Assembly: GCA_964450735.1 (NCBI GenBank) | Contig: CAYVDC010000008.1 | Location: forward strand, 647 to 64,646 | Direction: 5' to 3' | DNA length: 64,000 nt | From: an uncultured Candidatus Saccharibacteria bacterium | GTDB taxonomy: Bacteria > Patescibacteriota > Minisyncoccia > Phycocordibacterales > UBA9973 | Shown here: positions 20,896-64,000 of the stretch, piece by piece | How the letters are laid out: every line of letters begins with the position of its first letter | How positions within the stretch are numbered: the stretch's first letter is position 1 | The notes under the pieces: model-generated | What the model was told of the DNA's origin: nothing | Seen by the model: the letters and a program-made list of their open reading frames with translations, nothing else | Database searches by the model: none | Made by a program: the position numbers and the translations under genes

Positions 20896-23800
20896 ATGGA
20901 AGAAAAAAATATGCAACAAGAAAAAAGCGAAGCAGCTCTCAAGGAAGAGCGCATTTTGGCGTTTTGGAGAGAGAACAATACTTTCCAAAAATCCCTTACT
21001 AAAGAGTCTCCAAAAGGAAACTACGTTTTTTATGATGGTCCTCCGTTTGCGACAGGACAGATGCACTACGGACATATTCTTGGAAGCACGGCCAAGGACT
21101 CGATCGGCCGTTATCAAACTATGCGCGGGTATCATGTACCTCGACGATGGGGTTGGGACTGTCACGGTTTGCCAATCGAAAACATTGTTGAAAAAGAATT
21201 GGGCATTGCCGGACACAAAGAGATCGAAGCATACGGCGTAGAAAAATTCGTCGAGTATGCTCGAAGCAAGGTTTTGCAATACGACAAAGACTGGGAACGG
21301 GGAGTAGAGCGCATCGGACGATGGGTGGATTTTAAAGGCGGCTACAAGACAATGGACAACACGTTTATTGAAAGTGTCTGGTGGGCACTCGGACAATTGC
21401 AGACGAAAGGATTGATTTACGAAGGCGTCCGCGTCCTCGCATATTGTTCACGCTGCGAAACTCCAATTGCGAATTCCGAAATCGCGATGGATAACAGCTA
21501 CAAAGACATCACTGATATTTCAGTGTATGCAAAGTTTGAGCTTGTTGACGAGCCGGGTACCTACTTTATTGCGTGGACGACAACACCATGGACGCTTCCG
21601 GGAAACTTCGCACTTGCAGCAAGTCCAGAATTCAACTATGTCAAAATAAAAATCGGCGATGCTTTTTACATACTCTCCAAAGAGCGGCTTTCAGTCATCA
21701 AGGATGCCTATGAAATCGTTTCGGAAGGTGTGGATATTTTTGGTAAGGCGTATAAGCCCCTGTTTGATTATTTTACAGATAAGGAAATTGAAAATAAGGA
21801 AAAAGCATGGAAGGTCTACGCAGCTGGGTATGTTACCAACGACGCAGGAACTGGAATCGTGCACATCGCACCTGGATACGGTGAAGAAGACATGGAACTG
21901 GCAAAGCGAGAAAATATTCCATTCATGCATCACGTGTTGAACGATGGAACATTCGCCGAAGTCGTTCGCGATTTCATAGGTCTTTCAGTAAAGCCAAAGT
22001 CCGACGAAAAAGACGGACACCAGAAAACTGATATCGAAATCATCAAGCATTTGGCGCACCAAGGATATTTATTTGGCAAAGAAAAGATTGTTCACTCGTA
22101 CCCTCACTGCATGCGCTGCGACACGCCGATCATTTACTACGCACTTCCATCATGGTTCGTAAACATTCAGAAAGTAAAACCGGAAATCATAGAGAATGCA
22201 AAAGAGATGAATTGGATTCCGTCACACTTGAAAGACGGGCGATTCAAGAATAACCTCGAAGGAGCTCCAGACTGGACGATTTCTCGAAATCGCTACTGGG
22301 CCACACCGCTTCCGTTTTGGAAATCTCCTGAAGGCAAACTCATGACAATTTCATCGCTTGATGATTTGAAATCGAAAGCCAAGAAATCTGGCAACAAGTA
22401 TTTTGCTATGCGTCACGGTTATGGTCAGCACATGGATGCTGGCGTTGTTTCCGGACTTGATCATGATTCATACCATCTGACAGAAGAAGGCCGAAAGGGA
22501 ATTCTCGCTCAGGCTGAAAATCTCAAGAAAGATGGTATTACGATGATCATCGCTTCGCCGCTTATTCGAACGCAAGAAACGGCAAAAATGGCTGCTGAAA
22601 TTCTCGGCGTATCTGCGGATTCGATTATTACCGACAAGCGCCTCCGCGAATATGATTTCGGCGAATGGGATGGCAAGCCATGGCAGGAGTATGTGAACTA
22701 CCGTAAGGATCACATTGCTTCATACGACGAACCACTCGGCGGGTCTTCGCTCCTCGAAACGAAAAAGCGCTTCGGTGAATTTATGTATGAGCTTGAAGAA
22801 AAATATCAGAACGAACGCATACTGATTGTAACGCACGGCATTTTCTTTGAAACCGTTGCAGCTGTTGTTGTAGGCGCTGATAATGCGAAGTCGCTCGATA
22901 TTCTCTTTACGCAATTCACTGGCAATCGAATCCAGCCTGCGGAAATCCGAGAAATCCCATTTGTTCCGCTTCCTCATAATCACAACTATGAACTTGATCT
23001 GCATCGTCCATACATCGACGCTATTAAATTGGTTGATGAAAAGGGCACGATTTATGAGCGTATCCCAGAAGTGATCGACTGCTGGTTTGAATCAGGTTCA
23101 ATGCCGTTCGCGCAAGACCACTATCCATTCGAGCGTCCACACTGGAAGGAAGAAAATTTCCCTGCGGGATTTGTGGCTGAATACATCGCTCAAACTCGAA
23201 CATGGTTCTACTACACGCATGCTGTTTCAACCATGCTTTTTGGAGCTGCACCGTTCAAAAATGTCGTAACGACAGGAACACTTCGCGCAGAAGATGGTCA
23301 GAAAATTTCCAAGTCAAAAAAGAATTATCCTGATCCATGGATCTTTATCGACAAATATGGCGTAGATCCACTTCGCATGTACCTTATGTCAGGTCCGCTC
23401 ATGAAAGGGGAAGATGCAAACTTTTCTGAAAAAACTGTTGCCGAAATTGCCAATAAGATAATTGGCCGTCTTGGAAACGTGCTTTCGTTCTACGAACTCT
23501 ACCGAGATACTTCACTTGAACAGAAAGCATTTTCAAATCCAACTAATGTGCTCGATATTTGGGTACTTTCACGGTTGAATCAATTAGTTTCTGGAGTCAC
23601 TGAAGGAATGGAAGCGTACGACATGGCGGAAGCAACTCGACCGTTTGATTTATTTGTTGATGATCTTTCGACTTGGTATCTTCGCCGATCACGTGATCGT
23701 GTGAAAGAAGGGGAAGCTGAAGCAAAACAAACTCTTTATACCGTTTTGAAAACTGTGGCAACAGTGCTTGCTCCGTTCGCGCCGTTTACTGCCGAAGATA

Positions 23801-24312
23801 TGTGGCTCCGACTCAAAAATGAGTCTGATGTTGAAAGCGTGCATCTGGCAAATTGGCCGTCTGAACTCGGTGCTACTTCGACTGAAGTTCTCGAAGCAAT
23901 GAAGATAACCCGTGACATTTGCGCTGCTGGACATATGCTTCGTCAAAAAGCGAACATCGTTGTTCGTCAACCACTCGCAGCATTGTTTGTACCAGAAATT
24001 CCAGGCAAAGAATATGTGGAAATTTTGAAGGACGAACTTAACGTGAAAGAAATTCAACAAGGTGAAATAGTCTCATTAAATGAGACTATTTCACCGGAGC
24101 TCAAACTCGAAGGTGAATACCGCGATCTCGTCCGCTCGATTCAAGAACTTCGCAAGCAGACTGGTTTGCAGCCAAGCGATCGAATAACGATTACACTTAC
24201 AACTGAAGCTGAAAAATTGGTCGCTCTATTCATGGATGAATTCAAAAAGACAGTTCAGGCAGATCAGGTTTCCTTCGAAGCGATTGAAGCGCCTAAACTT
24301 GCTAAAATATAA
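20896..24312 (+). CDS. ileS: isoleucyl-tRNA synthetase (type 2) with inserted histidine-phosphatase (PGAM-like) domain
   Basis: PPFATGQMHYGHIL (HIGH), KISKSKKN (KMSKS), CWFESGSMPFAQ, editing-domain motifs; insert with RHG..SPLIRTQETA..EYDFGEWDG..VTHG at about nt 22380-22990. Confidence 0.9.
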   Translation: MEEKNMQQEKSEAALKEERILAFWRENNTFQKSLTKESPKGNYVFYDGPPFATGQMHYGHILGSTAKDSIGRYQTMRGYHVPRRWGWDCHGLPIENIVEKELGIAGHKEIEAYGVEKFVEYARSKVLQYDKDWERGVERIGRWVDFKGGYKTMDNTFIESVWWALGQLQTKGLIYEGVRVLAYCSRCETPIANSEIAMDNSYKDITDISVYAKFELVDEPGTYFIAWTTTPWTLPGNFALAASPEFNYVKIKIGDAFYILSKERLSVIKDAYEIVSEGVDIFGKAYKPLFDYFTDKEIENKEKAWKVYAAGYVTNDAGTGIVHIAPGYGEEDMELAKRENIPFMHHVLNDGTFAEVVRDFIGLSVKPKSDEKDGHQKTDIEIIKHLAHQGYLFGKEKIVHSYPHCMRCDTPIIYYALPSWFVNIQKVKPEIIENAKEMNWIPSHLKDGRFKNNLEGAPDWTISRNRYWATPLPFWKSPEGKLMTISSLDDLKSKAKKSGNKYFAMRHGYGQHMDAGVVSGLDHDSYHLTEEGRKGILAQAENLKKDGITMIIASPLIRTQETAKMAAEILGVSADSIITDKRLREYDFGEWDGKPWQEYVNYRKDHIASYDEPLGGSSLLETKKRFGEFMYELEEKYQNERILIVTHGIFFETVAAVVVGADNAKSLDILFTQFTGNRIQPAEIREIPFVPLPHNHNYELDLHRPYIDAIKLVDEKGTIYERIPEVIDCWFESGSMPFAQDHYPFERPHWKEENFPAGFVAEYIAQTRTWFYYTHAVSTMLFGAAPFKNVVTTGTLRAEDGQKISKSKKNYPDPWIFIDKYGVDPLRMYLMSGPLMKGEDANFSEKTVAEIANKIIGRLGNVLSFYELYRDTSLEQKAFSNPTNVLDIWVLSRLNQLVSGVTEGMEAYDMAEATRPFDLFVDDLSTWYLRRSRDRVKEGEAEAKQTLYTVLKTVATVLAPFAPFTAEDMWLRLKNESDVESVHLANWPSELGATSTEVLEAMKITRDICAAGHMLRQKANIVVRQPLAALFVPEIPGKEYVEILKDELNVKEIQQGEIVSLNETISPELKLEGEYRDLVRSIQELRKQTGLQPSDRITITLTTEAEKLVALFMDEFKKTVQADQVSFEAIEAPKLAKI

Positions 24313-51928: not shown

Positions 51929-52520
51929 ACAGGCGTGTCACGTTTTCGGAGATAGGAACCGGGAACATCGATACTGGCGCGCCTCGGATCGATCATTGAA
52001 AATTGCATATTGATATATTCTCCGTATCTTGGAGAAAAAAGATTTTACAGTTTTCTCTGTGTCATCCTCGGCATAGACGATGATGTTTGTTTCAAAAACT
52101 TTTATTATTTTTTGAAACGATAGGCGTCATTGGTGATTGGTCCGATAGCATCGCGTATGTCTTGCAGCGTATGTGATGCACGCTTTCGTTCTATACATAT
52201 ATATGTATGAGATGGAAGTATATCGGCCCTGTCGACAAGGCAGATATCTTTTTGGATCGATTCGTCGAAACAAAAAGGTTCAGCGGGTTTGATTTTTCCC
52301 GCTATCAAAAAACATCCGGAGCAAATACATGGTTGTGTCTTCTCTAATTAAGAAACCATTTCCATGTTTTGCATATGCTTGCCCGAGGCAAGCATAATGC
52401 ACACTTTTACGTTGTCGAACGTAATACATTAAGTGCATATCACACAAATAGATTGATGTCAGAGATACTCTGATTTTATTATCCGTGTTCTCGCATCCTT
52501 TCTATAGTTTTCAAATTATT

Positions 52521-55500
52521 ATGACTACATTCATCAAATCAAGCGCTGCTAAGGCAGTCGTAGGTTTGTTGGCTCTTGCGGTTCTCGCGATTGCATCTTC
52601 AGCATCAGCTGCATATACATTCACACAGAACCTCACAGTCGGTTCAAACTCAGCTGAAGTTAAACAGCTTCAGATGTTCTTGAACACCAACGGATTTACA
52701 GTTTCTACAACTGGTGCAGGTTCACCAGGAATGGAAAGCAACTACTTCGGAACAAAGACTCGAACAGCTCTCGCAGCTTTCCAGGCAGCTAAGGGTATCT
52801 CACCTGCAGCTGGTTACTTTGGTCCTTTGACTCGAACTACAATCAACGCTTGGGCAGGTTCAACAACTCTCCCAGCTGGTTGTACAACAGCTTCAGGATA
52901 CAGCTCAACAACAGGTCAGCCATGTTCAACAGGCTCAACACTTGTTCCTGGCTGTACTTCAACAACAGGCTACAGCTCAACAACAGGTCTCTCATGCGCA
53001 GGTGGTTCAACACCAGCTCAGACAGGTCCTGTAACAGCTTCACTCTCAACAACTAACCCTGCTTCAGGCGTTATTGTTACAGGTCAGGCTAATGCTAAGC
53101 TTGTAGATGTCGTGTTCGCAGGTGCAGGAACAGTTAACTCTGTTACTCTCAAGCGATCAGGTATCTCAACTCAGAGCACACTTCAGAACGTATACCTCTA
53201 CGATGGCGTTAATCGCTTGACAGACGGTTACTCATTCAACAACAACGGTGACTTGACTATGAACAACCTTAACTTGGCTGTTAATGGATCACGAACAATC
53301 TCAGTTGTTGCTGATGTATCTACAGTTTTAGGAGGTGCTTTGTCAGGTCAGACAATTGCTGTTGCTCTCACATCATTTACATCTGGAACAACTGTTTCAT
53401 CTGTAAACGTTCAGGGTAATACAATGTCAGTTGCTGATGGTACTAACACTCTTGCTTCAGTCTCATTTACAAGCGCTCAGTCATTTGGCGGTGCTACTGT
53501 AAATGCTGGAACATCTTCATACACAGTTTACCGACAGGCTATTCAGGTTAATACTCGAACTGTCTGGCTTAAGGCTGCTAACTTCCGAATCGTCGGCTCA
53601 GCTCCAACAGGTGCTGTAGCTAACGCTGGATTGTTTGTTGATGGTGTCAAGGTTGGAAACAATGCTTCAATGACAATGGCAAATGGTACTAACTACTTGT
53701 CATTTGATCTTTCATCAATGCCTTTCGCTCTTACAACTGGTGGTCACACTGTTGAAGTTCGAGCTGATATCGTTGGTGGTGCTAACTACAACTTTACAGT
53801 ATCACTCCAGCAGGCTTCAGATCTTATGATCTTGGATCCTCAGGTTGGAGTAAATATCGCTATTTCTCCATTCACTAGCTACGCTGGTGGACAGGTAAAC
53901 ATTGGTGCAGGTTCAGCTACATTTACAGTTGACCCAGCATTTAGCGCAATGACAAATGTAACTGGCGGTGCTTCAAATGCAGCTATCGCTAAGTTCAAGA
54001 TTCGTGGTTACGGTGAAGATGTGAAAGTTACACAGCTTACAGTAACTCCAGTCTTGTCAAGCACAACACCTACACAGTCATGCCCAACAGCTTGCGGACT
54101 CCAGAATGTAACACTTTACTTCAACGGTTCACAGGTTGGTTCACAGCAGAACTGGACAACAGGTGCTTTGACATTTAACCTTGGTTCACAGCTCATCATT
54201 CCTGCTAACACAGATAGCGTTCTTGAAGTTCGTGCTGATCTCCGCACAACTGCTGGCGCTAACTACACTGCTGGAACTGTTTCTGCAAACCTCGGTTCAG
54301 GAACAGCTGAAGGATTTACTTCACACACTTCAGTTCCAACTCCTGCTGTTACTGGTACATCATTGACAATCCAGACTGGACTCCTTGCTGTTTCTGCAAA
54401 CGCAGGCTACACAAGCCAGAACATCAGCCCTAATACTGCTGGTGCTAAGATTGGATCATTTGTTTTCCAGAACCAGAGCTCATCTGAATCAGTTCGTGTA
54501 ACTTCAGTTCAGGTTGCTCTCGCTTTCACAGGTGCACAGAGCTTGACAAACTTCTCAGGTCTTCGAACTTCAGAAGCTTCTGGTTCAGGCTCAACTCCAG
54601 TTCAGCCACAGGCATCAAACACATTCTCAGTAGACTTCACTCTTGCTCCAGGTGCTACAAAGGTGCTTGATATCTTTGCTGATGCTGGTTCTGTGACAAC
54701 TGGTACTATTGCAACAACTATCACTACTACTTCAATTGGTTCATCAAGCAACGTCTCACAGACAATCACAAGTGTTGCTGGTCAGACAATCACAATTGTT
54801 AGCGGTACTGTTGCTACTCCAACAGTTCTCTCACAGTCTTCAACTCAGTCACAGTACATCGCAGCTGGTACAACAGTTGGTACTACTAATGGTTCAAAAG
54901 CATCATTCAACTTTGTTGGAAGCAACGGTGCTTCAACAATCAGCGAACTTAAAGTTACTGTAACTTCTGGTACAGCTAACCAGACTCCAGTATCTTCAGT
55001 TACTGTTGGTGGTGTCACTGCTCCTGTAGTTGCAACTTCAACTACAACAGGTGATGCTTACTTGACTAACCTCAACATCGCAGTTCCTAACGGTGCAGGT
55101 GGTGCTAACGTTGACGTGTTCTTGAATTACACTGCAGTTGGTTCAACTGGTGTAACTTCAGGTACAACTGCTACTGCAGCTATCACATATGTTCGTTCAA
55201 CTTCTGGTGGAACAACATCAACAACTACTCCAAACGTTTCAGCTCCAACTATGACTGTAGTAGCTTCAAAGCCACTCGTCTCTGTTAATTCAACACAGCA
55301 GACAGGTCTTATCCTCGGTGCTGAAAACAAGATTGGTGAAGTAACAATTTCTGCTGATGCAGCAGGTAACATTGGTCTCAAGACCCTTGTATTCAATGTT
55401 GGTGCTTCAGGTCTTAGCGCTGCTGTTGATATCAACGATACTACTCCTGTTCTTCGATCAGGTGGAGTACCGGTTACTGGTGTTACTTGTGCTGCTGGTT

Positions 55501-55751
55501 CTGCTACAGGACCAATCACATGTACTTTCACTGGTACAACAGGTGCTACAATCACACCTGGAACTCCTGTTACATACAGCTTGTTTGCTACTGTTAACAA
55601 CTCAGCAGCTTCTGGTTCTACAGCTTCTATTTCAACTCAGGTTGATCAGAGCGGATTCCAGTGGGCTGATGTTGCTGGTAACAGCACAACACTCCGATCA
55701 GGAGCTCTTGTATACAACTTCCCAACAAATAGCTACTCAATCCGTCAATAA
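52521..55751 (+). CDS. giant cell-surface protein: signal/anchor, peptidoglycan-binding (PG_binding_1-like) domain, Cys-containing short repeats, long Thr/Ser/Gly/Val-rich beta region
   Basis: EVKQLQMFLNTNGF..YFGTKTRTALAAFQ..YFGPLT matches PG-binding domain pattern; tandem CT(T/S)xxGYSSTTG motifs; start reset to MTTFIKS. Confidence 0.6.
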   Translation: MTTFIKSSAAKAVVGLLALAVLAIASSASAAYTFTQNLTVGSNSAEVKQLQMFLNTNGFTVSTTGAGSPGMESNYFGTKTRTALAAFQAAKGISPAAGYFGPLTRTTINAWAGSTTLPAGCTTASGYSSTTGQPCSTGSTLVPGCTSTTGYSSTTGLSCAGGSTPAQTGPVTASLSTTNPASGVIVTGQANAKLVDVVFAGAGTVNSVTLKRSGISTQSTLQNVYLYDGVNRLTDGYSFNNNGDLTMNNLNLAVNGSRTISVVADVSTVLGGALSGQTIAVALTSFTSGTTVSSVNVQGNTMSVADGTNTLASVSFTSAQSFGGATVNAGTSSYTVYRQAIQVNTRTVWLKAANFRIVGSAPTGAVANAGLFVDGVKVGNNASMTMANGTNYLSFDLSSMPFALTTGGHTVEVRADIVGGANYNFTVSLQQASDLMILDPQVGVNIAISPFTSYAGGQVNIGAGSATFTVDPAFSAMTNVTGGASNAAIAKFKIRGYGEDVKVTQLTVTPVLSSTTPTQSCPTACGLQNVTLYFNGSQVGSQQNWTTGALTFNLGSQLIIPANTDSVLEVRADLRTTAGANYTAGTVSANLGSGTAEGFTSHTSVPTPAVTGTSLTIQTGLLAVSANAGYTSQNISPNTAGAKIGSFVFQNQSSSESVRVTSVQVALAFTGAQSLTNFSGLRTSEASGSGSTPVQPQASNTFSVDFTLAPGATKVLDIFADAGSVTTGTIATTITTTSIGSSSNVSQTITSVAGQTITIVSGTVATPTVLSQSSTQSQYIAAGTTVGTTNGSKASFNFVGSNGASTISELKVTVTSGTANQTPVSSVTVGGVTAPVVATSTTTGDAYLTNLNIAVPNGAGGANVDVFLNYTAVGSTGVTSGTTATAAITYVRSTSGGTTSTTTPNVSAPTMTVVASKPLVSVNSTQQTGLILGAENKIGEVTISADAAGNIGLKTLVFNVGASGLSAAVDINDTTPVLRSGGVPVTGVTCAAGSATGPITCTFTGTTGATITPGTPVTYSLFATVNNSAASGSTASISTQVDQSGFQWADVAGNSTTLRSGALVYNFPTNSYSIRQ

Positions 55752-55821
55752 TCTTCGGATTATCTAAGATTGATGGTTCCTTGTAGGAATTGTCAGATAG
55801 TCTGGCTGACTTAAATCGCCA

Positions 55822-55853
55822 CAAAAAACCACTCCGAAAGGGGTGGTTTTTTG
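55822..55853 (+). terminator. rho-independent terminator after surface-protein gene
   Basis: AAAAAACCACTCC GAAA GGGGTGGTTTTTT. Confidence 0.6.
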
Positions 55854-55944
55854 TTGTTAGGGGAGGTGTGGATAATGTGGGTTGCTAATTTCTGAGTTAG
55901 GGGTATACTTAAAAATATTAATAATAATTTAATGTTTTAAATAT

Positions 55945-56433
55945 ATGGAAAATAAAAATCAGACATTGTGGATTATTCTCGGAATCTTGGTTGTAGCGAT
56001 TATCGTTGTGTTTGCGGTAAAGGGCATGCGCAAGGATGTTCCTGCAGACGGCAACTCAAATCAGAATCAGACAGAAACAACAGCAGGTCCAGAATCAACA
56101 CAGGATACTTCTGGTTATGCTGCGACAACAGGAGGAACAGCGGTAACTATTGCGTATCAGGATGCTCTCGTAAAATACGCTGACCGCCGAATTCAGTTCA
56201 ATGACATGTGTCAGGCAACTCCAAACAAAGTTACTTACAAGGACAACTCAGGAATCATGCTTGATAACCGATCAGCGACTACTCGATCAATCAAGATCGG
56301 TGCGAATACTTACTCAGTGAAAGGCTATGGTTTCCGAATCGTAACTCTTCCTGATACATACCGAGATGCGAGCCAGTATCTCGTAGACTGTGGAACTTCA
56401 CAGAACGTTGCGACTATCTTGGTGCAGGAATAA
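55945..56433 (+). CDS. small secreted/anchored protein, paralog A
   Basis: N-terminal TM helix; C-terminal RIQF..C.ATP..IMLDNRS..YSV.G..L..DCG..NVAT..VQ shared with ORF 58089..58592. Confidence 0.55.
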   Translation: MENKNQTLWIILGILVVAIIVVFAVKGMRKDVPADGNSNQNQTETTAGPESTQDTSGYAATTGGTAVTIAYQDALVKYADRRIQFNDMCQATPNKVTYKDNSGIMLDNRSATTRSIKIGANTYSVKGYGFRIVTLPDTYRDASQYLVDCGTSQNVATILVQE

Positions 56434-56440
56434 TATTCCG

Positions 56441-56490
56441 TCCGCACAAAATAAAAAACACCCTGGCGGGTGTTTTTTATTTTGTGCGGA
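56441..56490. terminator. 23-bp perfect inverted repeat hairpin (bidirectional terminator-like)
   Basis: TCCGCACAAAATAAAAAACACCC tggc GGGTGTTTTTTATTTTGTGCGGA. Confidence 0.55.
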
Positions 56491-56565
56491 GAATGGCTTC
56501 ATTTTTGCTTTAGATGTTTTTTGTAAAGTTGCTGTAAATATATTCACAACTTAAAAACAATTCGT

Positions 56566-57960
56566 ATGAAAAAAATCTGTATTCTAATTTTTGTTATTGC
56601 TGGTGCAAGCCAGGCGCGTTCTCAGGCTGGTGTTGTTGATTTTGGAAACAGTACTGGAATAGTGAAATGCAATCTGCCATACACGGGCGTAGTGAAATAT
56701 TGCTCAGATGGGGGAAGCGTGTCATGTCAAAGTTCTGCGGTGGCAAGCCTCATATCTTCAAATTGGTATAAGAGCGCATGGTACGCAAATATTTGTCAGT
56801 TTAATTTGGCAAACCCCGGTGACACAGCCATAGGTACGGGTTCGGAGCTGCAGTTTTTGGCGGATGATTTTGCCGATCTGCGATTTCAAGTTTCAGATTT
56901 TAATTGCTCAAGTACCTTCAAGCTGTCATTCAAAATTAAGATTAATCGACCGTCGTCTCAGCATTACTCATATCCAAGCATCATGCTGTATTTTGGCGAT
57001 AGAGCTTCTGCATATCTGGATAAGAATAAAACTCCGAATTTTTATAACAGTCCGTACCCAGAAGATACTGCTATATTCGGATCAATTAATTTCCGTTCAG
57101 ACGGTTCGCTCCCGGGTGGCTGTAACGGTGCGGATGTTATGTGTGCACAGAGTACACATGGAGTTGGGATATATCCAGCCATGGCTACCTATGCTATGAG
57201 TCAGGGAGAAGTGCATACGGTGCAGGTATTTGCCAATACAGGTTCAAGCGACGAACCCTATGTCTCGCCAGGCGGAAGCTTCAAGGTCCTGCCGTCAAAA
57301 CACTACGATTTGTATATTGATACTGTAATGGTATATGGGGTTTCTTTTCCTAATTACTATTACAAAGGTGGTTCGATTTCTGGCTTTTCTTGGTATATGA
57401 ATCAGCCGAATTATTTTTCGCCAATCATTATTGATGATATAGAATGGTCGTCTGAGTTTTTCCCAGTGCTTTTGCCAGTGGAACTTTCACGATTTGATGT
57501 GGCAGATTGCAGCAATAACTTGCCATCCGCGTGTCTGAAGTGGGAAACAGAAACAGAATTAAATAACGAAGAGTTTGTGATTGAGCGGAGTACAGACGCA
57601 ATTATGTTTGACACAGTAGGCTCAGTGCTGGGTTATGGAACCAGTACCGTGCATCGCACCTACCAGTACGAAGATATGGTTTCCGAGGGCACGTACTATT
57701 ACCGGCTCAAGCAGATTGATTATGATGGCCACTTTGAATATTCGGATATACGCTTTGTGCGCATCCGGGAAAAACCACAGGAATGCAACATGAAAAATAT
57801 TTTTCAGCAGAAAGATATTGCTTATCGGCTGTATGATATGAATGGCAGGGAAATGAAAGTGCTTTTTGACGATAGAGCTTTCATTGAAAAAGGAATGTAT
57901 ATTGTTACGATCTTGGATGGCAGTGAAGTGCGATGTCGGGGGAAAGTATGGATAGAATGA
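56566..57960 (+). CDS. secreted protein with Bacteroidetes-style C-terminal sorting-domain-like tail (T9SS CTD-like)
   Basis: signal peptide MKKICILIFVIAGASQA; C-terminus YYYRLKQIDYDGHFEYSDIRFV..IAYRLYDMNGREMKV..GMYIVTILDGSEVRCRGKVWIE follows the pattern of T9SS C-terminal domains; codon usage visibly richer in CTG/GCG/GTG/CGG than neighbours. Confidence 0.5.
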   Translation: MKKICILIFVIAGASQARSQAGVVDFGNSTGIVKCNLPYTGVVKYCSDGGSVSCQSSAVASLISSNWYKSAWYANICQFNLANPGDTAIGTGSELQFLADDFADLRFQVSDFNCSSTFKLSFKIKINRPSSQHYSYPSIMLYFGDRASAYLDKNKTPNFYNSPYPEDTAIFGSINFRSDGSLPGGCNGADVMCAQSTHGVGIYPAMATYAMSQGEVHTVQVFANTGSSDEPYVSPGGSFKVLPSKHYDLYIDTVMVYGVSFPNYYYKGGSISGFSWYMNQPNYFSPIIIDDIEWSSEFFPVLLPVELSRFDVADCSNNLPSACLKWETETELNNEEFVIERSTDAIMFDTVGSVLGYGTSTVHRTYQYEDMVSEGTYYYRLKQIDYDGHFEYSDIRFVRIREKPQECNMKNIFQQKDIAYRLYDMNGREMKVLFDDRAFIEKGMYIVTILDGSEVRCRGKVWIE

Positions 57961-57973
57961 ATGGAAGAAATTT

Positions 57974-58015
57974 TTGCGCGGATTTTGCCGAAGGCAAAAT
58001 CCGCGCTTTTTATTG
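57974..58015 (+). terminator. rho-independent terminator (GCGCGGATTTTGCC gaag GGCAAAATCCGCGC + T5)
   Basis: 14-bp perfect stem. Confidence 0.7.
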
Positions 58016-58027
58016 GCTGTGTCCAAG

Positions 58028-58056
58028 TTGACCGAAAGGGCAGATTCCGCTAGTAT
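58028..58056 (+). promoter_or_regulatory. candidate promoter TTGACC-N17-TAGTAT
   Basis: near-consensus hexamers about 30 nt upstream of next ORF. Confidence 0.35.
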
Positions 58057-58088
58057 GCTCCTATAGCAATAATAATAAAAACAAGCAT

Positions 58089-58592
58089 ATGGATAAGGTT
58101 AATGCATGGTTCAGAAATAACAAGAATGTTGGATGGCTGATCGCCGGTATCTCAGTAGTATTGATTGTCGTAATTATTCTCATCGTGGCGCGCCCAGCAA
58201 AGAAGGCGAGCGAAGTCACTATTGAAACTCCAGACGAAACAGCGTTGGTTGCTCCAAGCAAAGCTCCGACATACACTGCTGCTCCTGTAGCAACAGCAAC
58301 TGCTCCGAAATTGAGCTACGACGACGCAGTAAAAATGTACGGCACTCACCGCATTCAGTTCGGCGAAACTTGTCTCGCAACTCCTGCAACATCAGTGTTC
58401 AAGAAGGGAAGCGAAATCATGTTGGACAATCGTTCATGGGAAGCAAAAACTTTCACCGTAAACGGAAAAGCATATTCAGTCGCTGGCCAGGATTATGCAA
58501 TTGTACCCCTCACTGTCCTTCCTGCATCAATGGAAGTGATGATTGATTGTGGAGCAATGAAGAACGTGGCTACTGTCACTGTGCAGCAATAA
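58089..58592 (+). CDS. small secreted/anchored protein, paralog B
   Basis: same architecture and conserved C-terminal motif as 55945..56433. Confidence 0.55.
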   Translation: MDKVNAWFRNNKNVGWLIAGISVVLIVVIILIVARPAKKASEVTIETPDETALVAPSKAPTYTAAPVATATAPKLSYDDAVKMYGTHRIQFGETCLATPATSVFKKGSEIMLDNRSWEAKTFTVNGKAYSVAGQDYAIVPLTVLPASMEVMIDCGAMKNVATVTVQQ

Positions 58593-58603
58593 GCAAAAAA
58601 ACG

Positions 58604-58640
58604 ATAAAAGCCTGGCGCCGTAGGCGCCAGGCTTTTATGC
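58604..58640 (+). terminator. rho-independent terminator (AAAAGCCTGGCGC cgtag GCGCCAGGCTTTT)
   Basis: 13-bp stem. Confidence 0.65.
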
Positions 58641-58652
58641 TATACTGTATAT

Positions 58653-58811
58653 ATGTTCTCCCGACACCTCATCAAAATGCTCCTCGGCCTCGTCGGAATG
58701 GGACTCTTCGGCATTATTAGCCTGATCCTGATTAACCTCTATTACAAGGAGACAACGACGGACGTTAATGCTTCGGTAGAGCCTATGGCAAGCCAAGCTC
58801 GTGAGCGATAG
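58653..58811 (+). CDS. possible small membrane protein (52 aa), not in ORF track
   Basis: ATG..TAG ORF MFSRHLIKMLLGLVGMGLFGIISLILINLYYKE.. with one TM helix, after a TATACT -10-like element. Confidence 0.2.
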   Translation: MFSRHLIKMLLGLVGMGLFGIISLILINLYYKETTTDVNASVEPMASQARER

Positions 58812-58986: not shown

Positions 58987-59478
58987 ATGGCTATTACCAA
59001 ATCAAAGAAAGTTGAACTGCTTGCAGGATTCGAAGAGAACTTGAAAGGCGTACAGTCAATCGTATTCGTACGATTCACTAAATTGCCAGTTAAGGAAACT
59101 ATCGAATTGCGACGAGCACTTCGTGCAGAAGGCGTCGGTTACAAGGTCATCAAGAAAACATTGATGAAGCGCGTACTCGGAACCAAAGGCATCACAGGCG
59201 ACATGCCTGACATCGCCGGAGAAGTCGCTGTTGCATTCGGTGTAGATCCAATTGCTCCTGCTCGATTAGTGTATGAATTCTCAAAGACTCACAAGGGTCA
59301 GGTTGAGATCATCGGAGGAGTGTTTGAAGGACGATATATGTCAGCAAGCGAAATGCTTTCTGTCGCAACTATCCCTCCACTCAATGTCCTCTACGGTCAG
59401 TTCGTCGGTTTGCTTGCATCACCTATGCGTTCATTTGTTGTCGCTCTCGACCAGATCGCAAAGAAGCAGCAGGCTTAA
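58987..59478 (+). CDS. rplJ: 50S ribosomal protein L10
   Basis: MAITKSKKVELLAGFEENLKGVQSIVFVRF; followed by rplL. Confidence 0.85.
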   Translation: MAITKSKKVELLAGFEENLKGVQSIVFVRFTKLPVKETIELRRALRAEGVGYKVIKKTLMKRVLGTKGITGDMPDIAGEVAVAFGVDPIAPARLVYEFSKTHKGQVEIIGGVFEGRYMSASEMLSVATIPPLNVLYGQFVGLLASPMRSFVVALDQIAKKQQA

Positions 59479-59507
59479 GCATTATTTATTAAATTAGATT
59501 ACTTATT

Positions 59508-59900
59508 ATGGAAGAAACAAAAGTAGAAGTACCAGCAAAATTTGCTGACCTCGTATCAAAGATCGAAGGTTTGTCAGTTCTCGAATTGAACGAACTCGTT
59601 AAGGTTCTCGAAGCAAAATTCGGCGTATCAGCATCAGCTATGATGTCAGCAGCTCCAGCAGCTGGTGCAGCAGGTGCAGCTGAAGAAAAGGATGCATTCA
59701 CTGTTGTCCTCGCGTCAGCAGGTGAACAGAAGATTGCTGTTATGAAAGTAGTTAAGGAAGTTCTCGCACTCGGTCTTAAGGAAGCTAAGGACCTCGTAGA
59801 TGGCGCTCCAGCTACTCTCAAGGAAGGCATGAAGAAAGAAGAAGCTAACGAACTCAAGAAGAAAATTGAGGAAGCTGGCGGTAAGGTTGAACTTAAGTAA
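59508..59900 (+). CDS. rplL: 50S ribosomal protein L7/L12
   Basis: Ala-rich hinge and C-terminal [31 protein letters not shown]. Confidence 0.9.
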
Positions 59901-60069: not shown

Positions 60070-60648
60070 ATGAATGAAAAGTATGCATTAATTTCCGTTT
60101 TCAATAAGGACGGAATCGTTGAGTATGCCCAAGAGCTTATCAAGCTGGGATACACTATTGTTTCATCAGGAGGTACTGCAACGCATTTAGCTAAGCACGG
60201 TATTGAAGTTATTGACGTTCAGGTATTTACTAAAATGCCGGCAATACTTGGACACCGTGTAGTTACACTGCATCCTGCGGTTCATGCTGGTTTGCTTGCA
60301 AAAGATACTGCTGAGCACAGGGCTGAACTGGAAAAATTAGGCTTCCCGTATTTTGATGTTGTGGTAATTGATTTCTATCCGTTAAAAGACGAGATAGAAA
60401 AAGATGGTGCTACTACGGAAAGTATAATTGAAAAAATTGATATTGGCGGACCAACCATGGTAAAGGCTGCAGCAAAAGGCGGACGTGTTGTAGTTTGCAA
60501 TACCGAAGACAGACAGGCAGTTTTAGAGTGGCTGAAAGCAGACCAACCAAAGCGCGAGAAATTTATTCAAAATCTTGCAGCTACTGCATTCTCTACTGTT
60601 GTAAAGTATTATACTGACGCAGCATTATTCTATGCCGGTTTGAATTAA
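60070..60648 (+). CDS. stand-alone IMP cyclohydrolase domain (PurH N-terminal MGS-like domain) without AICAR transformylase half
   Basis: ALISVFNKDGIVEYAQEL..SSGGTA..GHRVVTLHPAVHAGLLA..IDIGGPTMVKAAAKG aligns with PurH residues 1-190. Confidence 0.65.
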   Translation: MNEKYALISVFNKDGIVEYAQELIKLGYTIVSSGGTATHLAKHGIEVIDVQVFTKMPAILGHRVVTLHPAVHAGLLAKDTAEHRAELEKLGFPYFDVVVIDFYPLKDEIEKDGATTESIIEKIDIGGPTMVKAAAKGGRVVVCNTEDRQAVLEWLKADQPKREKFIQNLAATAFSTVVKYYTDAALFYAGLN

Positions 60649-62357: not shown

Positions 62358-64000
62358 ATGAAAAAAAGCATTCTCCTGGGTTCCGTATTGTCCCTCGCGG
62401 CAGGTATTTTTATCGCATCACATTTTACAGATATCACGGTGAATGCCAGACTACTTACCGCTCAAGTTATCGGAGCATTTACGAAAACTGATCTTCCGTA
62501 CAGCATTGTGCAATCAAAGATAGACCCAGAAGTTTTTACTTTTAAATATCCTATATTTGCAGGAGTGAGCCTCGAAAAAGGGCAGAAGTACTTTGATATC
62601 GCCATCCTTCCATTCGACGAACAGGCAGTGCAGAAAGCAGCTATAAAAAACAACATACAGATGAATTTCGGTAGCTTGCGTGATGCCTGGGGTTATCCAG
62701 TACATGAAAATGCGTATATGAAATTAGGCGCTTCCGGCATTAAAACTGAAATACCGACCAAAACCACGACACAGAAGACTAGTTTGGGAAATAAAATCCA
62801 GAATTTCTTTGTTCCCGTTGCTTTTGCCGCCGACGCAAATCCAAGTGTTCCAGGATTGGTAAACTGCCGGGCGAACACCGGAGTCACTGGATATTTCGAA
62901 GCATACTTTGAAGATGTTGCAGTGCATAACAATAAGGGATACGATCATCCAACCTTTGGAGCTGCTCGCCGCAATGCTGCTTGCCAAGCCCTCCAGGATT
63001 TGTCGGTTTTGATAAAACTTGATACTACTACTATTACTCCCGATATTTTGTTCCAAGTGGATCCAGGAAATATTCCAAACAACGCGCTTGCTGCAGCGTC
63101 TACTTATTATGGAAATTATTCCAATGGTACTGACGATGGTTTGTTGCATAAGCATATTATTTCACGCATAGACCCTACGCCGGTACTTGGCAGATTCGAT
63201 GCCTTTATCATCACGAACTTCGGTCCAAGCATACAATGGGATACTGATTCAAGTTTGAATGCAAATACCTACAGCCTTTCGACTGTTATTACTCACGAAG
63301 CAATGCATGCACTCGGTTTTGTCTCGCTTCTTCCTGCGGTCATTCCTGTAACAAACAGTATCCATCCGTACAGTACTTTTGATTCTGGACTTTCTAATAA
63401 CGCCGTTGTTCCACGCACATCTTTTTTTAATGCAGTCACTCGTGTCCTTCAAGTGCCAGTCGGTGCTCCATCTCCATGGTTTACTACCAATGCTGCCCTC
63501 TATCAAGGACAAAGAAATATCATAAGTTCAGGGCCTGGGCCGGTAGATCCTGTGTATAGTCCTGCATCATGGCAGCAAGGCTCATCGCTTTCACACTTCG
63601 ACATGGCTCGTTCGAGCGGACAGAGTTATGTTATGAATCCGACGACTCCTCCTAACACAGTGCAGGTACTTCATGCTGATGAGAAAGAAGTGCTTTGTCA
63701 GCAAGGATATGCCGTACAAGGACTAGCAGGGTGCGATGTCCCTACGCCAATTGCAAATGATGACTTTGGTTATCTTGGTAGTGGGGGAACGCTAAATCCC
63801 GCTTGTATTGATGTATTAGCAAACGACACATCGTTTACGACAGGTACATTGACCATGTATTCTTTGCAGGTTAGTACAGTGCAAGCTGGCGATACCATAC
63901 AATATTTTAGTGACAGCAATTGTACTGGGTCAGTACTGTCTGTAGCCAATGGAAACGGCGCAAAATCCTTGCGCTTTACTCCAGGTGCCAACCAATCATC
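62358..64000 (+). CDS. secreted HExxH zinc-metallopeptidase-like protein, 3'-partial (runs off window end)
   Basis: ATG at 62358 after in-frame TAA and extended -10 (TGtTATAAT); signal peptide MKKSILLGSVLSLAAGIFIA; TVITHEAMHALGF zincin motif at 63291; no stop in frame before 64000, and the supplied track lists no + strand ORF of 60 aa or more in any frame over this span, hence missing from the track. Confidence 0.55.
   Translation, partial: MKKSILLGSVLSLAAGIFIASHFTDITVNARLLTAQVIGAFTKTDLPYSIVQSKIDPEVFTFKYPIFAGVSLEKGQKYFDIAILPFDEQAVQKAAIKNNIQMNFGSLRDAWGYPVHENAYMKLGASGIKTEIPTKTTTQKTSLGNKIQNFFVPVAFAADANPSVPGLVNCRANTGVTGYFEAYFEDVAVHNNKGYDHPTFGAARRNAACQALQDLSVLIKLDTTTITPDILFQVDPGNIPNNALAAASTYYGNYSNGTDDGLLHKHIISRIDPTPVLGRFDAFIITNFGPSIQWDTDSSLNANTYSLSTVITHEAMHALGFVSLLPAVIPVTNSIHPYSTFDSGLSNNAVVPRTSFFNAVTRVLQVPVGAPSPWFTTNAALYQGQRNIISSGPGPVDPVYSPASWQQGSSLSHFDMARSSGQSYVMNPTTPPNTVQVLHADEKEVLCQQGYAVQGLAGCDVPTPIANDDFGYLGSGGTLNPACIDVLANDTSFTTGTLTMYSLQVSTVQAGDTIQYFSDSNCTGSVLSVANGNGAKSLRFTPGANQS

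What the first reader, a model, noticed from the sequence alone, without database searches (positions are those of the whole stretch)
55945..58640. Terminator-insulated cassette: T9SS-CTD-like secreted protein flanked by two paralogous small secreted proteins
Genes 55945..56433 and 58089..58592 are clear paralogs, sharing the C-terminal motif RIQF..C.ATP..IMLDNRS..YSV.G..DCG..NVAT.VQ. Between them sits a 464-aa secreted protein whose C-terminus (YYYRLKQIDYDGHFEYSDI.. then IAYRLYDMNGREMKV..GMYIVTILDG..GKVWIE) looks like the C-terminal sorting domains of Bacteroidetes type IX secretion substrates. Its codon usage also differs from the neighbours, being CTG, GCG, GTG and CGG-rich. Each of the three genes has its own strong hairpin terminator, including a 23-bp perfect inverted repeat at 56441-56490. 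A T9SS-type tail in a genome unlikely to have T9SS suggests horizontal acquisition or a repurposed domain.
Basis: partly seen in the sequence, partly recalled or inferred. Interest (0 to 1): 0.65.

Follow-up and report, generated by a model that had tools for sequence, protein, structure and literature searches.

The report
Relic secretion tail in minimal bacterium
A tiny-genome (CPR/Patescibacteria) bacterium carries a fast-evolving, recombining secreted lectin-like protein that descends from a Bacteroidetes-type "type IX secretion" cargo and still has a decaying copy of that secretion tail, although this kind of bacterium is not known to have that secretion system.

Summary
The sequence features are real: three ORFs, two paralogues, four strong hairpins including the 23-bp perfect repeat. 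The window comes from a Paceibacteria-type CPR bacterium.

The 464-aa protein has four parts:
- a Sec signal peptide;
- a ConA/L-type-lectin-like jelly-roll domain;
- an FN3-like domain;
- a 63-aa tail homologous to the T9SS type A C-terminal domain (CTD).

TIGR04183 scores 18.1 bits here, below the cutoff of 23. CPR orthologues range from 26.5 (pass) to undetectable. A full-length collinear homologue with a bona fide CTD exists (hhalign E 1e-30).

The gene sits at the same locus upstream of rplJ in at least 8 independent assemblies, reaching relatives with only 52% L10 identity. The acquisition is therefore old, not recent. Overall GC and GC3 are normal; only CTG, GTG and CGG are enriched.

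It is a divergence hot spot: 53% aa identity where neighbours show 87-99%. Two near-identical strains differ by a swap of the FN3+tail module exactly at the domain boundary.

The two small paralogues are membrane-anchored cupredoxin-fold proteins of a CPR-wide, unannotated family (at least 189 members). They lack the canonical copper ligands.

Gene order varies between genomes and each gene has its own promoter-like site or terminator. This is a neighbourhood, not an operon.

The parts
55821..55854 (.). Hairpin terminator after the giant PG_binding_1 surface protein gene (15-bp arms with an A-tract/T-tract)
   Evidence: dG -25.9, z -5.6. Conserved in L002 and L003.
55882..55909 (+). Promoter-like site for smallA (TTGCTA-16-TATACT)
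   Evidence: 9 of 12 positions match. The motif is conserved in L002 and L003. Its function as a promoter is inferred.
55945..56433 (+). smallA: 162-aa single-pass membrane protein with a C-terminal cupredoxin-fold domain (type A paralogue)
56441..56490 (.). Hairpin with 23-bp perfect arms and a 4-nt loop; a bidirectional-type intrinsic terminator after smallA
   Evidence: dG -37.4, z -10.1. Position is conserved in L002 and L003 with compensatory sequence changes.
56529..56557 (+). Conserved block upstream of the 464-aa gene (TTGCTG-17-TAAAAA); a possible weak promoter
   Evidence: Read. Conserved in L002 and L003. Only 7 of 12 positions match the consensus, and the scan did not flag it. Inference.
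56566..56625 (+). Signal peptide of the 464-aa protein (residues 1-20), followed by an invariant Gln at the predicted +1 position
   Evidence: Alignment and sequences. The cleavage site is inferred; no predictor was run.
56626..57465 (+). N-terminal domain (residues 21-300), a ConA/L-type-lectin-like jelly roll and near-orphan family
   Evidence: 10 hits among 1.84 billion representatives. AF2 pLDDT 55-89 for residues 104-295 and below 50 for most of residues 7-103. Foldseek matches to Emp46p/47p, Erythrina lectin, VIP36 and ERGIC-53, TMt about 0.5.
57466..57768 (+). FN3-like beta-sandwich (residues 301-401, motif LPVEL...YYYRLKQIDYDG). In about 120 FCB-type proteins this module sits directly before a PF18962 CTD
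   Evidence: pLDDT mostly 87-95 over residues 311-400; 3mpc, TMt 0.69.
57769..57960 (+). 63-aa tail (residues 402-464) plus stop codon: a shortened, decaying T9SS type A CTD that keeps the D..G, G.Y and C-terminal K motifs and has a lineage-specific Cys pair (C407, C457)
57976..58011 (+). Intrinsic terminator of the 464-aa gene (14-bp stem, GAA loop, T5). The 31-nt hairpin is identical in four lineages
58028..58056 (+). Promoter-like site for smallB (TTGACC-17-TAGTAT)
   Evidence: Both hexamers are conserved in L002, L003 and L004.
58089..58592 (+). smallB: 167-aa single-pass membrane protein with a C-terminal cupredoxin-fold domain (type B paralogue)
   Evidence: C-terminal domain pLDDT above 90. 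Foldseek Cupredoxin_1, EfeO, FtrB and CupA..
58604..58638 (.). Hairpin terminator after smallB (16-bp perfect arms)
   Evidence: dG -29.2. Position is conserved with different sequences in L002, L003 and L004.

Best explanation
The 464-aa gene descends from a T9SS cargo gene of an FCB-group (Bacteroidota-like) donor. An ancestor of this Paceibacteria (CPR) lineage captured it long ago and inserted it next to a resident small-protein gene upstream of rplJ.

**Export and function (inferred).** In the CPR cell the protein is exported by Sec through its signal peptide. It then acts outside the cell as a lectin-like binding protein built from a ConA-like jelly roll and an FN3-like spacer.

**The tail.** The T9SS sorting domain no longer serves secretion. 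It is decaying at different rates in different sublineages. It is nonetheless retained as a small folded C-terminal module under purifying selection (omega about 0.24-0.30), now with a lineage-specific cysteine pair.

**Evolutionary behaviour.** The gene is a hot spot of allelic divergence and domain-wise homologous exchange. This is the pattern expected for a host-, prey- or phage-exposed surface or secreted protein.

**The flanking genes.** The two flanking genes are duplicated members of a CPR-wide family of membrane-anchored cupredoxin-fold proteins. They are independent transcription units, not parts of an operon with the lectin-like gene.

**Shown versus inferred.** Shown: homology, architecture, synteny, divergence pattern, recombination breakpoint and folds. 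Inferred: direction of transfer, Sec export, glycan binding and loss of the secretion role of the tail.
For: **Taxonomy.** Related loci carry record titles naming Candidatus Paceibacterota, Kaiserbacteria or Patescibacteria. The window holds typical CPR housekeeping genes.

**Homology to T9SS cargo.**
- About 120 database hits match only residues about 298-401. In those proteins an 80-90-aa PF18962 CTD follows directly.
- The family profile aligns end to end with P0152: probability 99.85%, E 1.1e-30, residues 1-462 against 1-453. P0152 has PF18962 at E 3e-12 and TIGR04183 at 47.9 bits.
- The family tail against a CTD alignment by hhalign gives probability 85%, E 5.8e-6.
- The only PDB sequence hits of the family profile are RgpB CTDs, ungapped over residues 419-458, E 0.09-0.45.
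- TIGR04183 across the CPR orthologues forms a decay series: 26.5, 23.0, 21.4, 18.1, 13, none.

**Old acquisition.** The gene has the same locus in L002, L003/L006, L004/L007, L005, L026, L027, L031 and L001. L10 identity falls to 52% for L026. GC3 is normal.

**Rarity.** The N-domain profile finds 10 proteins among 1.84 billion representatives. Only one further locus turned up in 241 million metagenome records.

**Still functional.** Omega per domain is 0.09-0.30 where dS is not saturated.

**Hot spot and mosaic.**
- Amino-acid identity to L002 is 53%, against 87-99% for housekeeping neighbours.
- Nucleotide identity drops sharply at the CDS edges.
- L002 and L031 are mostly 96-100% identical from upstream up to window coordinate about 57474 (0.87-0.93 in four 90-nt bins inside the N-domain). 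This coordinate is the domain boundary. Beyond it they are 59-69% identical. L002 and L003 show the opposite pattern.

**Folds.** The N-domain resembles L-type lectins and the middle domain resembles FN3. The small proteins have a cupredoxin fold, TMt 0.6-0.7.

**Independent units.** Each gene has its own hairpin, and smallA and smallB have conserved promoter-like sites. Gene order varies between genomes. The small family has at least 189 members, essentially all without a middle gene beside them.
Against: - The tail is below the curated thresholds in the window protein itself.
- An HMM built from the CTDs of the hits scored the tails no better than shuffled tails.
- The AF2 model is only moderate: mean pLDDT 68.5, residues 7-103 below 50. 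It shows just three strands in the tail.
- The lectin similarity is at fold level only (TMt about 0.5). No ligand-binding residues were identified.
- Absence of T9SS genes was not tested on a whole genome. Only 26 window proteins were scanned against Pfam.
- The direction of transfer rests on distribution, not on a phylogeny.
- Retention of the CTD motifs under purifying selection is not explained by simple decay.
Confidence: 0.7

Rival explanations
1. The tail is kept because it still works as a CTD-type recognition module in trans. The CPR episymbiont secretes a lectin-like protein, and its CTD docks onto CTD-binding T9SS components (for example PorV or the attachment complex) exposed on an FCB-group host. 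This would help attachment or interfere with host secretion.
For: - The motifs that define CTD function, Lbeta3beta4 (D..G) and the C-terminal motif (PMC11285876), are invariant in the five sequences of alignment A2; the D..G motif also holds in P0148 and P0150, and P0150 keeps the C-terminal K..W.
- The tail evolves with omega 0.24-0.30 rather than neutrally.
- It has been retained across deep divergence, and one orthologue still passes TIGR04183.
- The gene shows diversifying, mosaic behaviour typical of host-interaction proteins.
Against: - There is no information on the host.
- The tail is the least conserved domain (29-41% identity).
- Two orthologues have lost all detectable TIGR04183 signal.
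- The first two CTD strands appear shortened.
- No precedent was found in the literature search.
Confidence: 0.08
2. The three genes form a functional unit. The membrane-anchored cupredoxin-fold proteins tether or partner the secreted lectin-like protein at the cell surface.
For: At least one small paralogue lies directly next to the middle gene in every genome that has it. The small gene is duplicated only in this clade.
Against: - Each gene has its own terminator and conserved promoter-like site.
- Order and copy number vary.
- L008 has the small gene without the middle gene.
- The small family is spread across Paceibacteria, with at least 189 members, while the middle gene has fewer than 10.
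- Divergence rates differ strongly: 79-82% identity against 53%.
Confidence: 0.1
3. Recent horizontal transfer: the gene is a newly arrived foreign gene, marked by foreign codon usage.
For: CTG, GTG and CGG are used 3-6 times more than in the rest of the window, ranking first among genes. Divergence boundaries at the CDS edges are sharp.
Against: - The gene is syntenic in relatives down to 52% L10 identity.
- GC and GC3 equal the window mean.
- All full-length relatives are CPR.
- The same codon trend appears in orthologues.
- What is recent is exchange of alleles among related CPR strains, not entry from another phylum.
Confidence: 0.05
4. Assembly chimera or contamination: a Bacteroidota fragment was mis-joined into a CPR contig.
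For: None beyond the Bacteroidota-like domain content.
Against: The same junctions appear in at least 8 independent assemblies from different samples and pipelines. Composition equals that of the flanks.
Confidence: 0.01

Closest known systems
T9SS type A cargo proteins of the FCB group (TIGR04183 / PF18962 C-terminal sorting domain; archetype RgpB CTD, PDB 5hfs/5ag8). The nearest full-length relative is P0152.
   Same: - Same architecture: signal peptide, functional domain, FN3-like beta-sandwich with the LPVEL...YYRLKQxDxDG motif, then a C-terminal sorting domain.
- Collinear homology over the whole length to P0152.
- Gln at the predicted +1 position after the signal peptide, as in the Bacteroidetes Q-rule (PMC5837995).
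- The tail keeps the D..G, G.Y and C-terminal K motifs.
   Different: - The host is a CPR bacterium, with no T9SS expected.
- The tail is 63 aa, against 80-90 aa in the nearest relatives. It is below curated cutoffs and its first strands are shortened.
- Cys pairs (C315/C323, C407/C457) are absent from P0152.
- There is no evidence of PorU cleavage or A-LPS attachment.
L-type (legume) lectin / ConA-like / LamG-like jelly-roll domains (Emp46p/47p, VIP36, ERGIC-53, Erythrina lectin)
   Same: Predicted fold of residues about 104-295. The terminal 'IIDDIxWS' strand resembles the LamG-type last strand (from memory, not tested). Distant sequence relatives carry CBM_X2 and CBM_4_9 modules.
   Different: No Pfam match at E<=1. 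TMt is only about 0.5. The first 100 residues are not modelled confidently. No sugar- or metal-binding residues were identified.
Membrane-anchored or periplasmic cupredoxin-fold metal-handling proteins: CupA (4f2e), the EfeO N-domain (7wgu), FtrB (8vuk), Cupredoxin_1 (4hcf)
   Same: The small paralogues have an N-terminal TM helix and an approximately 90-aa cupredoxin-fold domain: Foldseek E 1e-5, rmsd 2.2-3.1 A, TMt 0.6-0.7. Two Cys and one Met are invariant, reminiscent of CupA's Cys/Cys/Met Cu(I) site (from memory).
   Different: There is no conserved His, so the type 1 copper ligand set is absent. There is no Pfam cupredoxin hit. The Cys pair may simply be a disulfide. The family is restricted to Paceibacteria-type CPR and is unannotated.
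Mosaic, recombining surface or secreted protein genes of host-associated bacteria (general class)
   Same: Divergence is sharply bounded against conserved flanks. Allelic exchange is domain-wise with a breakpoint at the domain boundary. Each allele is under purifying selection.
   Different: No repeats, no diversity-generating retroelement and no invertible elements were seen. Only a handful of alleles are known.

Membership tests
T9SS type A C-terminal sorting domain (TIGR04183 / PF18962) | Profile score at or above the curated cutoff | tested here: not met
   Window protein: TIGR04183 scores 18.1 bits against a cutoff of 23 (E 0.0019). PF18962 gives no hit at E<=1. Orthologues: P0149 scores 26.5 (passes), P0003 23.0, P0002 21.4, P0150 13, and P0004 and P0148 give none.
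T9SS type A C-terminal sorting domain (TIGR04183 / PF18962) | Homology of the extreme C-terminus to known CTDs | tested here: met
   - hhalign of the tail against a CTD alignment: probability 85%, E 5.8e-6.
- Full-length collinear hhalign to the CTD-bearing P0152: E 1.1e-30.
- RgpB CTDs are the only PDB hits.
T9SS type A C-terminal sorting domain (TIGR04183 / PF18962) | Seven-stranded Ig-like beta-sandwich of about 65-100 residues (PMC11285876) | tested here: inconclusive
   The tail is 63 aa. The AF2 model shows three strands (419-423, 443-451, 454-463) with pLDDT 59-89. The alignment was shallow.
T9SS type A C-terminal sorting domain (TIGR04183 / PF18962) | Conserved Lbeta3beta4 (D..G) and C-terminal motifs (PMC11285876) | tested here: met
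   D424, G427, R428, G443, Y445, K460 and W462 are invariant in the five sequences of alignment A2. They align with RgpB 'FDMNGRRV...GVY'.
T9SS type A C-terminal sorting domain (TIGR04183 / PF18962) | T9SS machinery (PorK/L/M/N, SprA, PorV, PorU) encoded in the same genome | not testable with these tools
   Only 64 kb is available. The 26 window proteins scanned against Pfam show no T9SS components. The CPR taxonomy makes a T9SS unlikely (general knowledge).
ConA-like / L-type lectin jelly roll | Fold similarity to solved lectin domains | tested here: inconclusive
   Foldseek probability 1.0 but TMt 0.45-0.51 and rmsd 6-10 A, on a model with pLDDT 55-89 in this region. There is no Pfam hit.
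Fibronectin type III-like beta-sandwich | Fold similarity | tested here: met
   pLDDT is mostly 87-95 over residues 311-400. 3mpc matches with TMt 0.69 and rmsd 3.3 A, and many FN3 tandems also hit.
Cupredoxin (small paralogues) | Cupredoxin beta-sandwich fold | tested here: met
   The C-terminal domain has pLDDT above 90. Foldseek to 4hcg, 7wgu, 8vuk and 4f2e gives E 1e-5 to 1e-3, TMt 0.6-0.7 and rmsd 2.2-3.1 A.
Cupredoxin (small paralogues) | Type 1 copper ligand set (His, Cys, His, Met) | tested here: not met
   No column reaches 20% His in 120 family members. Only C95, C154 and M111 are invariant.
Pfam DUF5849 (PF19167) | Score at or above the gathering threshold | tested here: not met
   The score is 25.4 against 26.9. 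The match covers the TM helix and linker, and only 3 of 17 members match.
Operon / co-transcribed cassette | Shared promoter with no internal terminators, and conserved gene order | tested here: not met
   A strong hairpin follows each gene. smallA and smallB have conserved promoter-like sites of their own. Gene order is variable.

The most novel reading that the evidence does not exclude
A CPR episymbiont has kept a T9SS sorting domain not for its own secretion but as a key to its host's type IX machinery. The secreted lectin-like protein would use its CTD to dock onto CTD receptors (PorV or the attachment complex) on the surface of an FCB-group host. Domain-wise allelic exchange would track host diversity.
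Probability: 0.07. Interest if true: 0.85.

Novelty: new variant of a known kind. Interest (0 to 1): 0.45.

Why it matters
T9SS sorting domains are regarded as a hallmark of diderm FCB-group bacteria. Here a cargo-type gene has survived for a long time in an ultra-small CPR lineage with a stripped-down genome. Its signal domain is caught at several stages of decay, yet it remains under constraint.

This gives three things:
- a natural series for asking which CTD features persist without the secretion system;
- a candidate host-interaction protein in a group whose attachment biology is almost unknown. It is secreted, lectin-like, mosaic and recombining;
- a pointer to an unannotated, CPR-wide family of membrane-anchored cupredoxin-fold proteins with an invariant Cys/Cys/Met/Asp-Asn-Arg signature.

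None of this overturns current views. It is a useful lead rather than a breakthrough.

Tried and rejected
**Searches that found nothing or could not run.**
- The first genome-contig scan with the 464-aa protein found nothing.
A 10-sequence alignment was used instead.
- Pfam found nothing for the 464-aa protein at E<=1.
- PHROGs and PADLOC gave no hits for any of the genes, so a phage or defence origin is not supported.
- No tRNA gene is present. The only Rfam hit is the L10 leader.
- No flanking direct repeats or mobile-element signs surround the middle gene.
- Literature searches for T9SS CTDs in Patescibacteria and for DUF5849 returned nothing relevant.

**Tests that were weak or uninformative.**
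- An HMM built from about 110 CTDs of the hits scored the CPR tails at 3-7 bits per domain (whole-sequence scores 5.5-13.2), while shuffled window tails reached 6.1. The window's own tail (7.9) barely exceeded that, so this test alone is not significant. Profile-profile and curated-model tests were needed.
- Contexts of P0021 and P0152 did not reveal taxonomy.

**Readings rejected.**
- DUF5849 membership for the small proteins was rejected: the score is below threshold and the match covers the TM helix and linker.
- A positive-selection reading was not adopted. dN of the middle gene (0.40) stays below the dS of flanking genes (0.66-1.27), and omega per domain is 0.09-0.30.


Full report
**1. 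Observation**

The three ORFs are as described: 55945-56433 (162 aa), 56566-57960 (464 aa) and 58089-58592 (167 aa). The two small proteins are paralogues, 42% identical over their C-terminal 95 residues, E 5e-23.

Four strong hairpins punctuate the locus:
- 55821-55854, dG -25.9;
- 56441-56490, 23-nt arms, 100% complementary, dG -37.4, z -10;
- 57976-58006 followed by T5, dG -25.7;
- 58604-58638, dG -29.2.

None of 200 shuffles folds as well as any of them. Promoter-like sites precede smallA (55882-55909) and smallB (58028-58056). Both are conserved in relatives.

**2. Whose genome**

Loci found with the neighbouring L10 protein carry record titles such as Candidatus Paceibacterota, Kaiserbacteria and Patescibacteria. 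The window holds typical small-genome housekeeping genes: aminoacyl-tRNA synthetases, ThyA, SHMT, RecA, FtsK and L10/L12 with its leader RF00557. This is a CPR bacterium. From general knowledge, this group has no outer membrane and no type IX secretion system. That could not be checked on a whole genome here.

**3. The 464-aa protein**

*Database hits.* Pfam finds nothing at E<=1. NCBIfam gives only TIGR04183 (Por_Secre_tail): E 0.0019, 18.1 bits, below the cutoff of 23, residues 414-456. In the 5.8-billion-protein search only four proteins match full length (53, 52, 52 and 39% identity). About 120 others match only residues about 298-401. In those proteins this module lies directly in front of an 80-90-aa PF18962 CTD. 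The named ones are Chitinophagales, Bacteroidetes, Ignavibacteria, KSB1 and Dyadobacter.

*N-terminal domain.* A profile of the N-terminal 300 residues, run against 1.84 billion representatives, finds just 10 proteins. Three of them (P0148, P0149 and the fragment P0150) are further family members; P0148 and P0149 were traced to the same CPR locus, P0150 was not traced. The distant ones include P0152 and P0155, which carry genuine PF18962 tails, and P0153, which carries CBM_X2 and CBM_4_9 modules.

*Collinearity with a real cargo.* The family profile aligns collinearly with P0152 over 1-462 against 1-453, probability 99.85%, E 1.1e-30, tail on CTD.

*Independent tests of the tail.*
- hhalign against a CTD alignment gives probability 85%, E 5.8e-6.
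- The only PDB sequence hits of the family profile are RgpB CTDs, ungapped over residues 419-458, E 0.09-0.45.
- TIGR04183 scores across the CPR orthologues run 26.5 (P0149, passes), 23.0, 21.4, 18.1 (window), 13 and none.
- A home-made CTD HMM was not discriminating.

The tail is therefore a T9SS type A CTD at various stages of decay. It retains the Lbeta3beta4 'D..G', 'G.Y' and C-terminal 'K' motifs that PMC11285876 identifies as functionally relevant. It has also acquired a conserved Cys pair.

*Predicted structure.* AF2 (mean pLDDT 68.5) gives:
- a confident FN3-like domain (mostly 87-95 over residues 311-400);
- a moderately confident jelly roll whose best PDB matches are L-type lectins (Emp46p/47p, Erythrina lectin, VIP36, ERGIC-53; TMt about 0.5);
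- three strands in the tail.

*Signal peptide.* An N-terminal signal peptide is followed by an invariant Gln. This echoes the Bacteroidetes Q-rule (PMC5837995). That is an inference, since no cleavage predictor was available.

**4. Age and evolutionary behaviour**

*Synteny.* The gene lies between the giant PG_binding_1 protein gene and rplJ in L001, L002, L003/L006, L004/L007, L005, L026, L027 and L031. These are independent assemblies. L026 shares only 52% L10 identity with the window. Intermediate relatives (L008-L011) lack the gene at this locus. The acquisition is therefore old, with later losses.

*Composition.* GC 0.427 and GC3 0.413 equal the window mean. CTG, GTG and CGG are genuinely over-used, ranking first among window genes with Fisher p from 6e-5 to 1e-3. 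GCG is not. Orthologues show the same trend more weakly, so it is not evidence of recent arrival.

*Divergence hot spot.* Against L002, housekeeping neighbours are 87-99% identical in protein. smallA is 82%, smallB 79%, and the middle gene 53%. Nucleotide identity falls from about 0.75 to about 0.45 at the start codon and recovers after the stop. Synonymous sites are saturated in the middle gene, while flanking genes show dS 0.66-1.27.

*Constraint.* Where dS is measurable, omega is 0.09-0.11 for the N and FN3 domains and 0.24-0.30 for the tail. The gene is constrained, not decaying as a whole.

*Module swap.* L002 and L031 are mostly 96-100% identical from upstream of smallA up to window coordinate about 57474, dipping to 0.87-0.93 in four 90-nt bins inside the N-domain. 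This is the N-domain/FN3 boundary. Beyond it they are 59-69% identical. L002 and L003 show the reverse pattern. This is a recent domain-wise allelic exchange of the FN3+tail module.

**5. The small paralogues**

They are not cleaved secreted proteins. Each has an N-terminal TM helix, a low-complexity linker and an approximately 90-aa domain predicted with pLDDT above 90. The nearest solved folds are cupredoxin-type: Cupredoxin_1 (4hcg), the EfeO N-domain, FtrB, CupA and nitrosocyanin, with TMt 0.6-0.7.

The family has at least 189 members. All are about 150-180 aa, the named ones are Paceibacteria-type CPR, and none has a Pfam cupredoxin domain (one carries only PF21827). In 120 members C95, C154, M111, D113, N114, R115 and Y84 are invariant and no His is conserved. 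The classical copper site is therefore absent. The Cys pair may be a disulfide or a CupA-like thiolate site; this is unresolved. The sub-threshold DUF5849 hit is not meaningful.

**6. Cassette or neighbourhood?**

Gene order differs between genomes:
- A-mid-B in the window, L002 and L003;
- mid-B in L004;
- mid-A in L027;
- small-small-mid in L026;
- a single small gene without the middle gene in L008.

Given the separate terminators and promoter-like sites, the three genes are independent units. The middle gene was inserted beside an older resident small gene, which duplicated in this clade.

**7. Verdict**

The event is ancient, though, and the 'cassette' is not a functional unit.

The most interesting additions are:
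- the graded decay series of the CTD;
- the mosaic, recombining nature of the gene;
- the cupredoxin-fold identity of the flanking CPR-wide family.

Two things remain unexplained. The CTD motifs stay conserved without a T9SS. The 31-nt terminator after the gene is identical, loop included, in four lineages although the adjacent coding sequence is saturated with changes.

Noticed in passing
window 58987-59900 (rplJ-rplL) vs L002: This block is 96-100% identical in nucleotides to L002 (dS 0.035-0.106), while genes on both sides show dS 0.66-1.27. That suggests a recent recombination import or unusually strong constraint.
   Followed up: partly
window 57976-58006: The 31-nt terminator hairpin after the 464-aa gene is 31/31 identical, loop included, in the window, L002, L003/L006, L004/L007 and L005. 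The other hairpins of the locus vary by compensatory changes. It may be sequence-specific or a recombination anchor.
   Followed up: partly
window 60070-60648: A 192-aa MGS-domain-only remnant of purH. L002 and L027 encode full-length PurH (556 and 578 aa, MGS + AICARFT_IMPCHas). About 1 kb is missing in the window and the remnant is only 47% identical to L002.
   Followed up: partly
window 20896-24312: The isoleucyl-tRNA-synthetase-like protein (1138 aa) has a histidine phosphatase (His_Phos_1) domain inserted at residues 505-667, between halves of the catalytic domain.
   Followed up: no
window 58653-58811: A 52-aa ORF encoding a small hydrophobic protein. It is conserved (50/50 in L002, and also in L003, L004, L027, L008, L010 and L011) just upstream of the L10 leader RF00557 (58838-58970), so it is probably a real gene.
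   Followed up: partly
window 52485-55751 (especially 54700-55750): The giant 1088-aa Thr/Ser/Ala-rich protein has an N-terminal PG_binding_1 domain. Its C-terminal third is only about 55% identical in nucleotides to L002, against about 80-90% for the rest. Its codon usage is the second most deviant of the 59 window ORFs scored (scaled chi2 0.60; only the 142-codon ORF at 62724-63155 is higher) and its GC3 is 0.28.
   Followed up: partly
P0021, P0027, P0054 (L028, L029): These 500-aa proteins carry the same FN3-like module followed by an even shorter, approximately 42-54-aa CTD-like tail ('KKYYDLNGREI...RKIMLIK'), with no PF18962 hit. Truncated CTD relics may occur in other lineages too. Their taxonomy was not resolved.
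   Followed up: partly
L027 1526-1915: In this relative a PemK-family toxin gene lies where smallA lies in the window, immediately upstream of the middle-gene orthologue.
   Followed up: no
window 57622-58026 (- strand) and other antisense ORFs: Long antisense ORFs overlap the 464-aa gene and the giant protein gene (134 aa and 157 aa). They were not compared with relatives or scanned, so they are taken to be chance ORFs.
   Followed up: no
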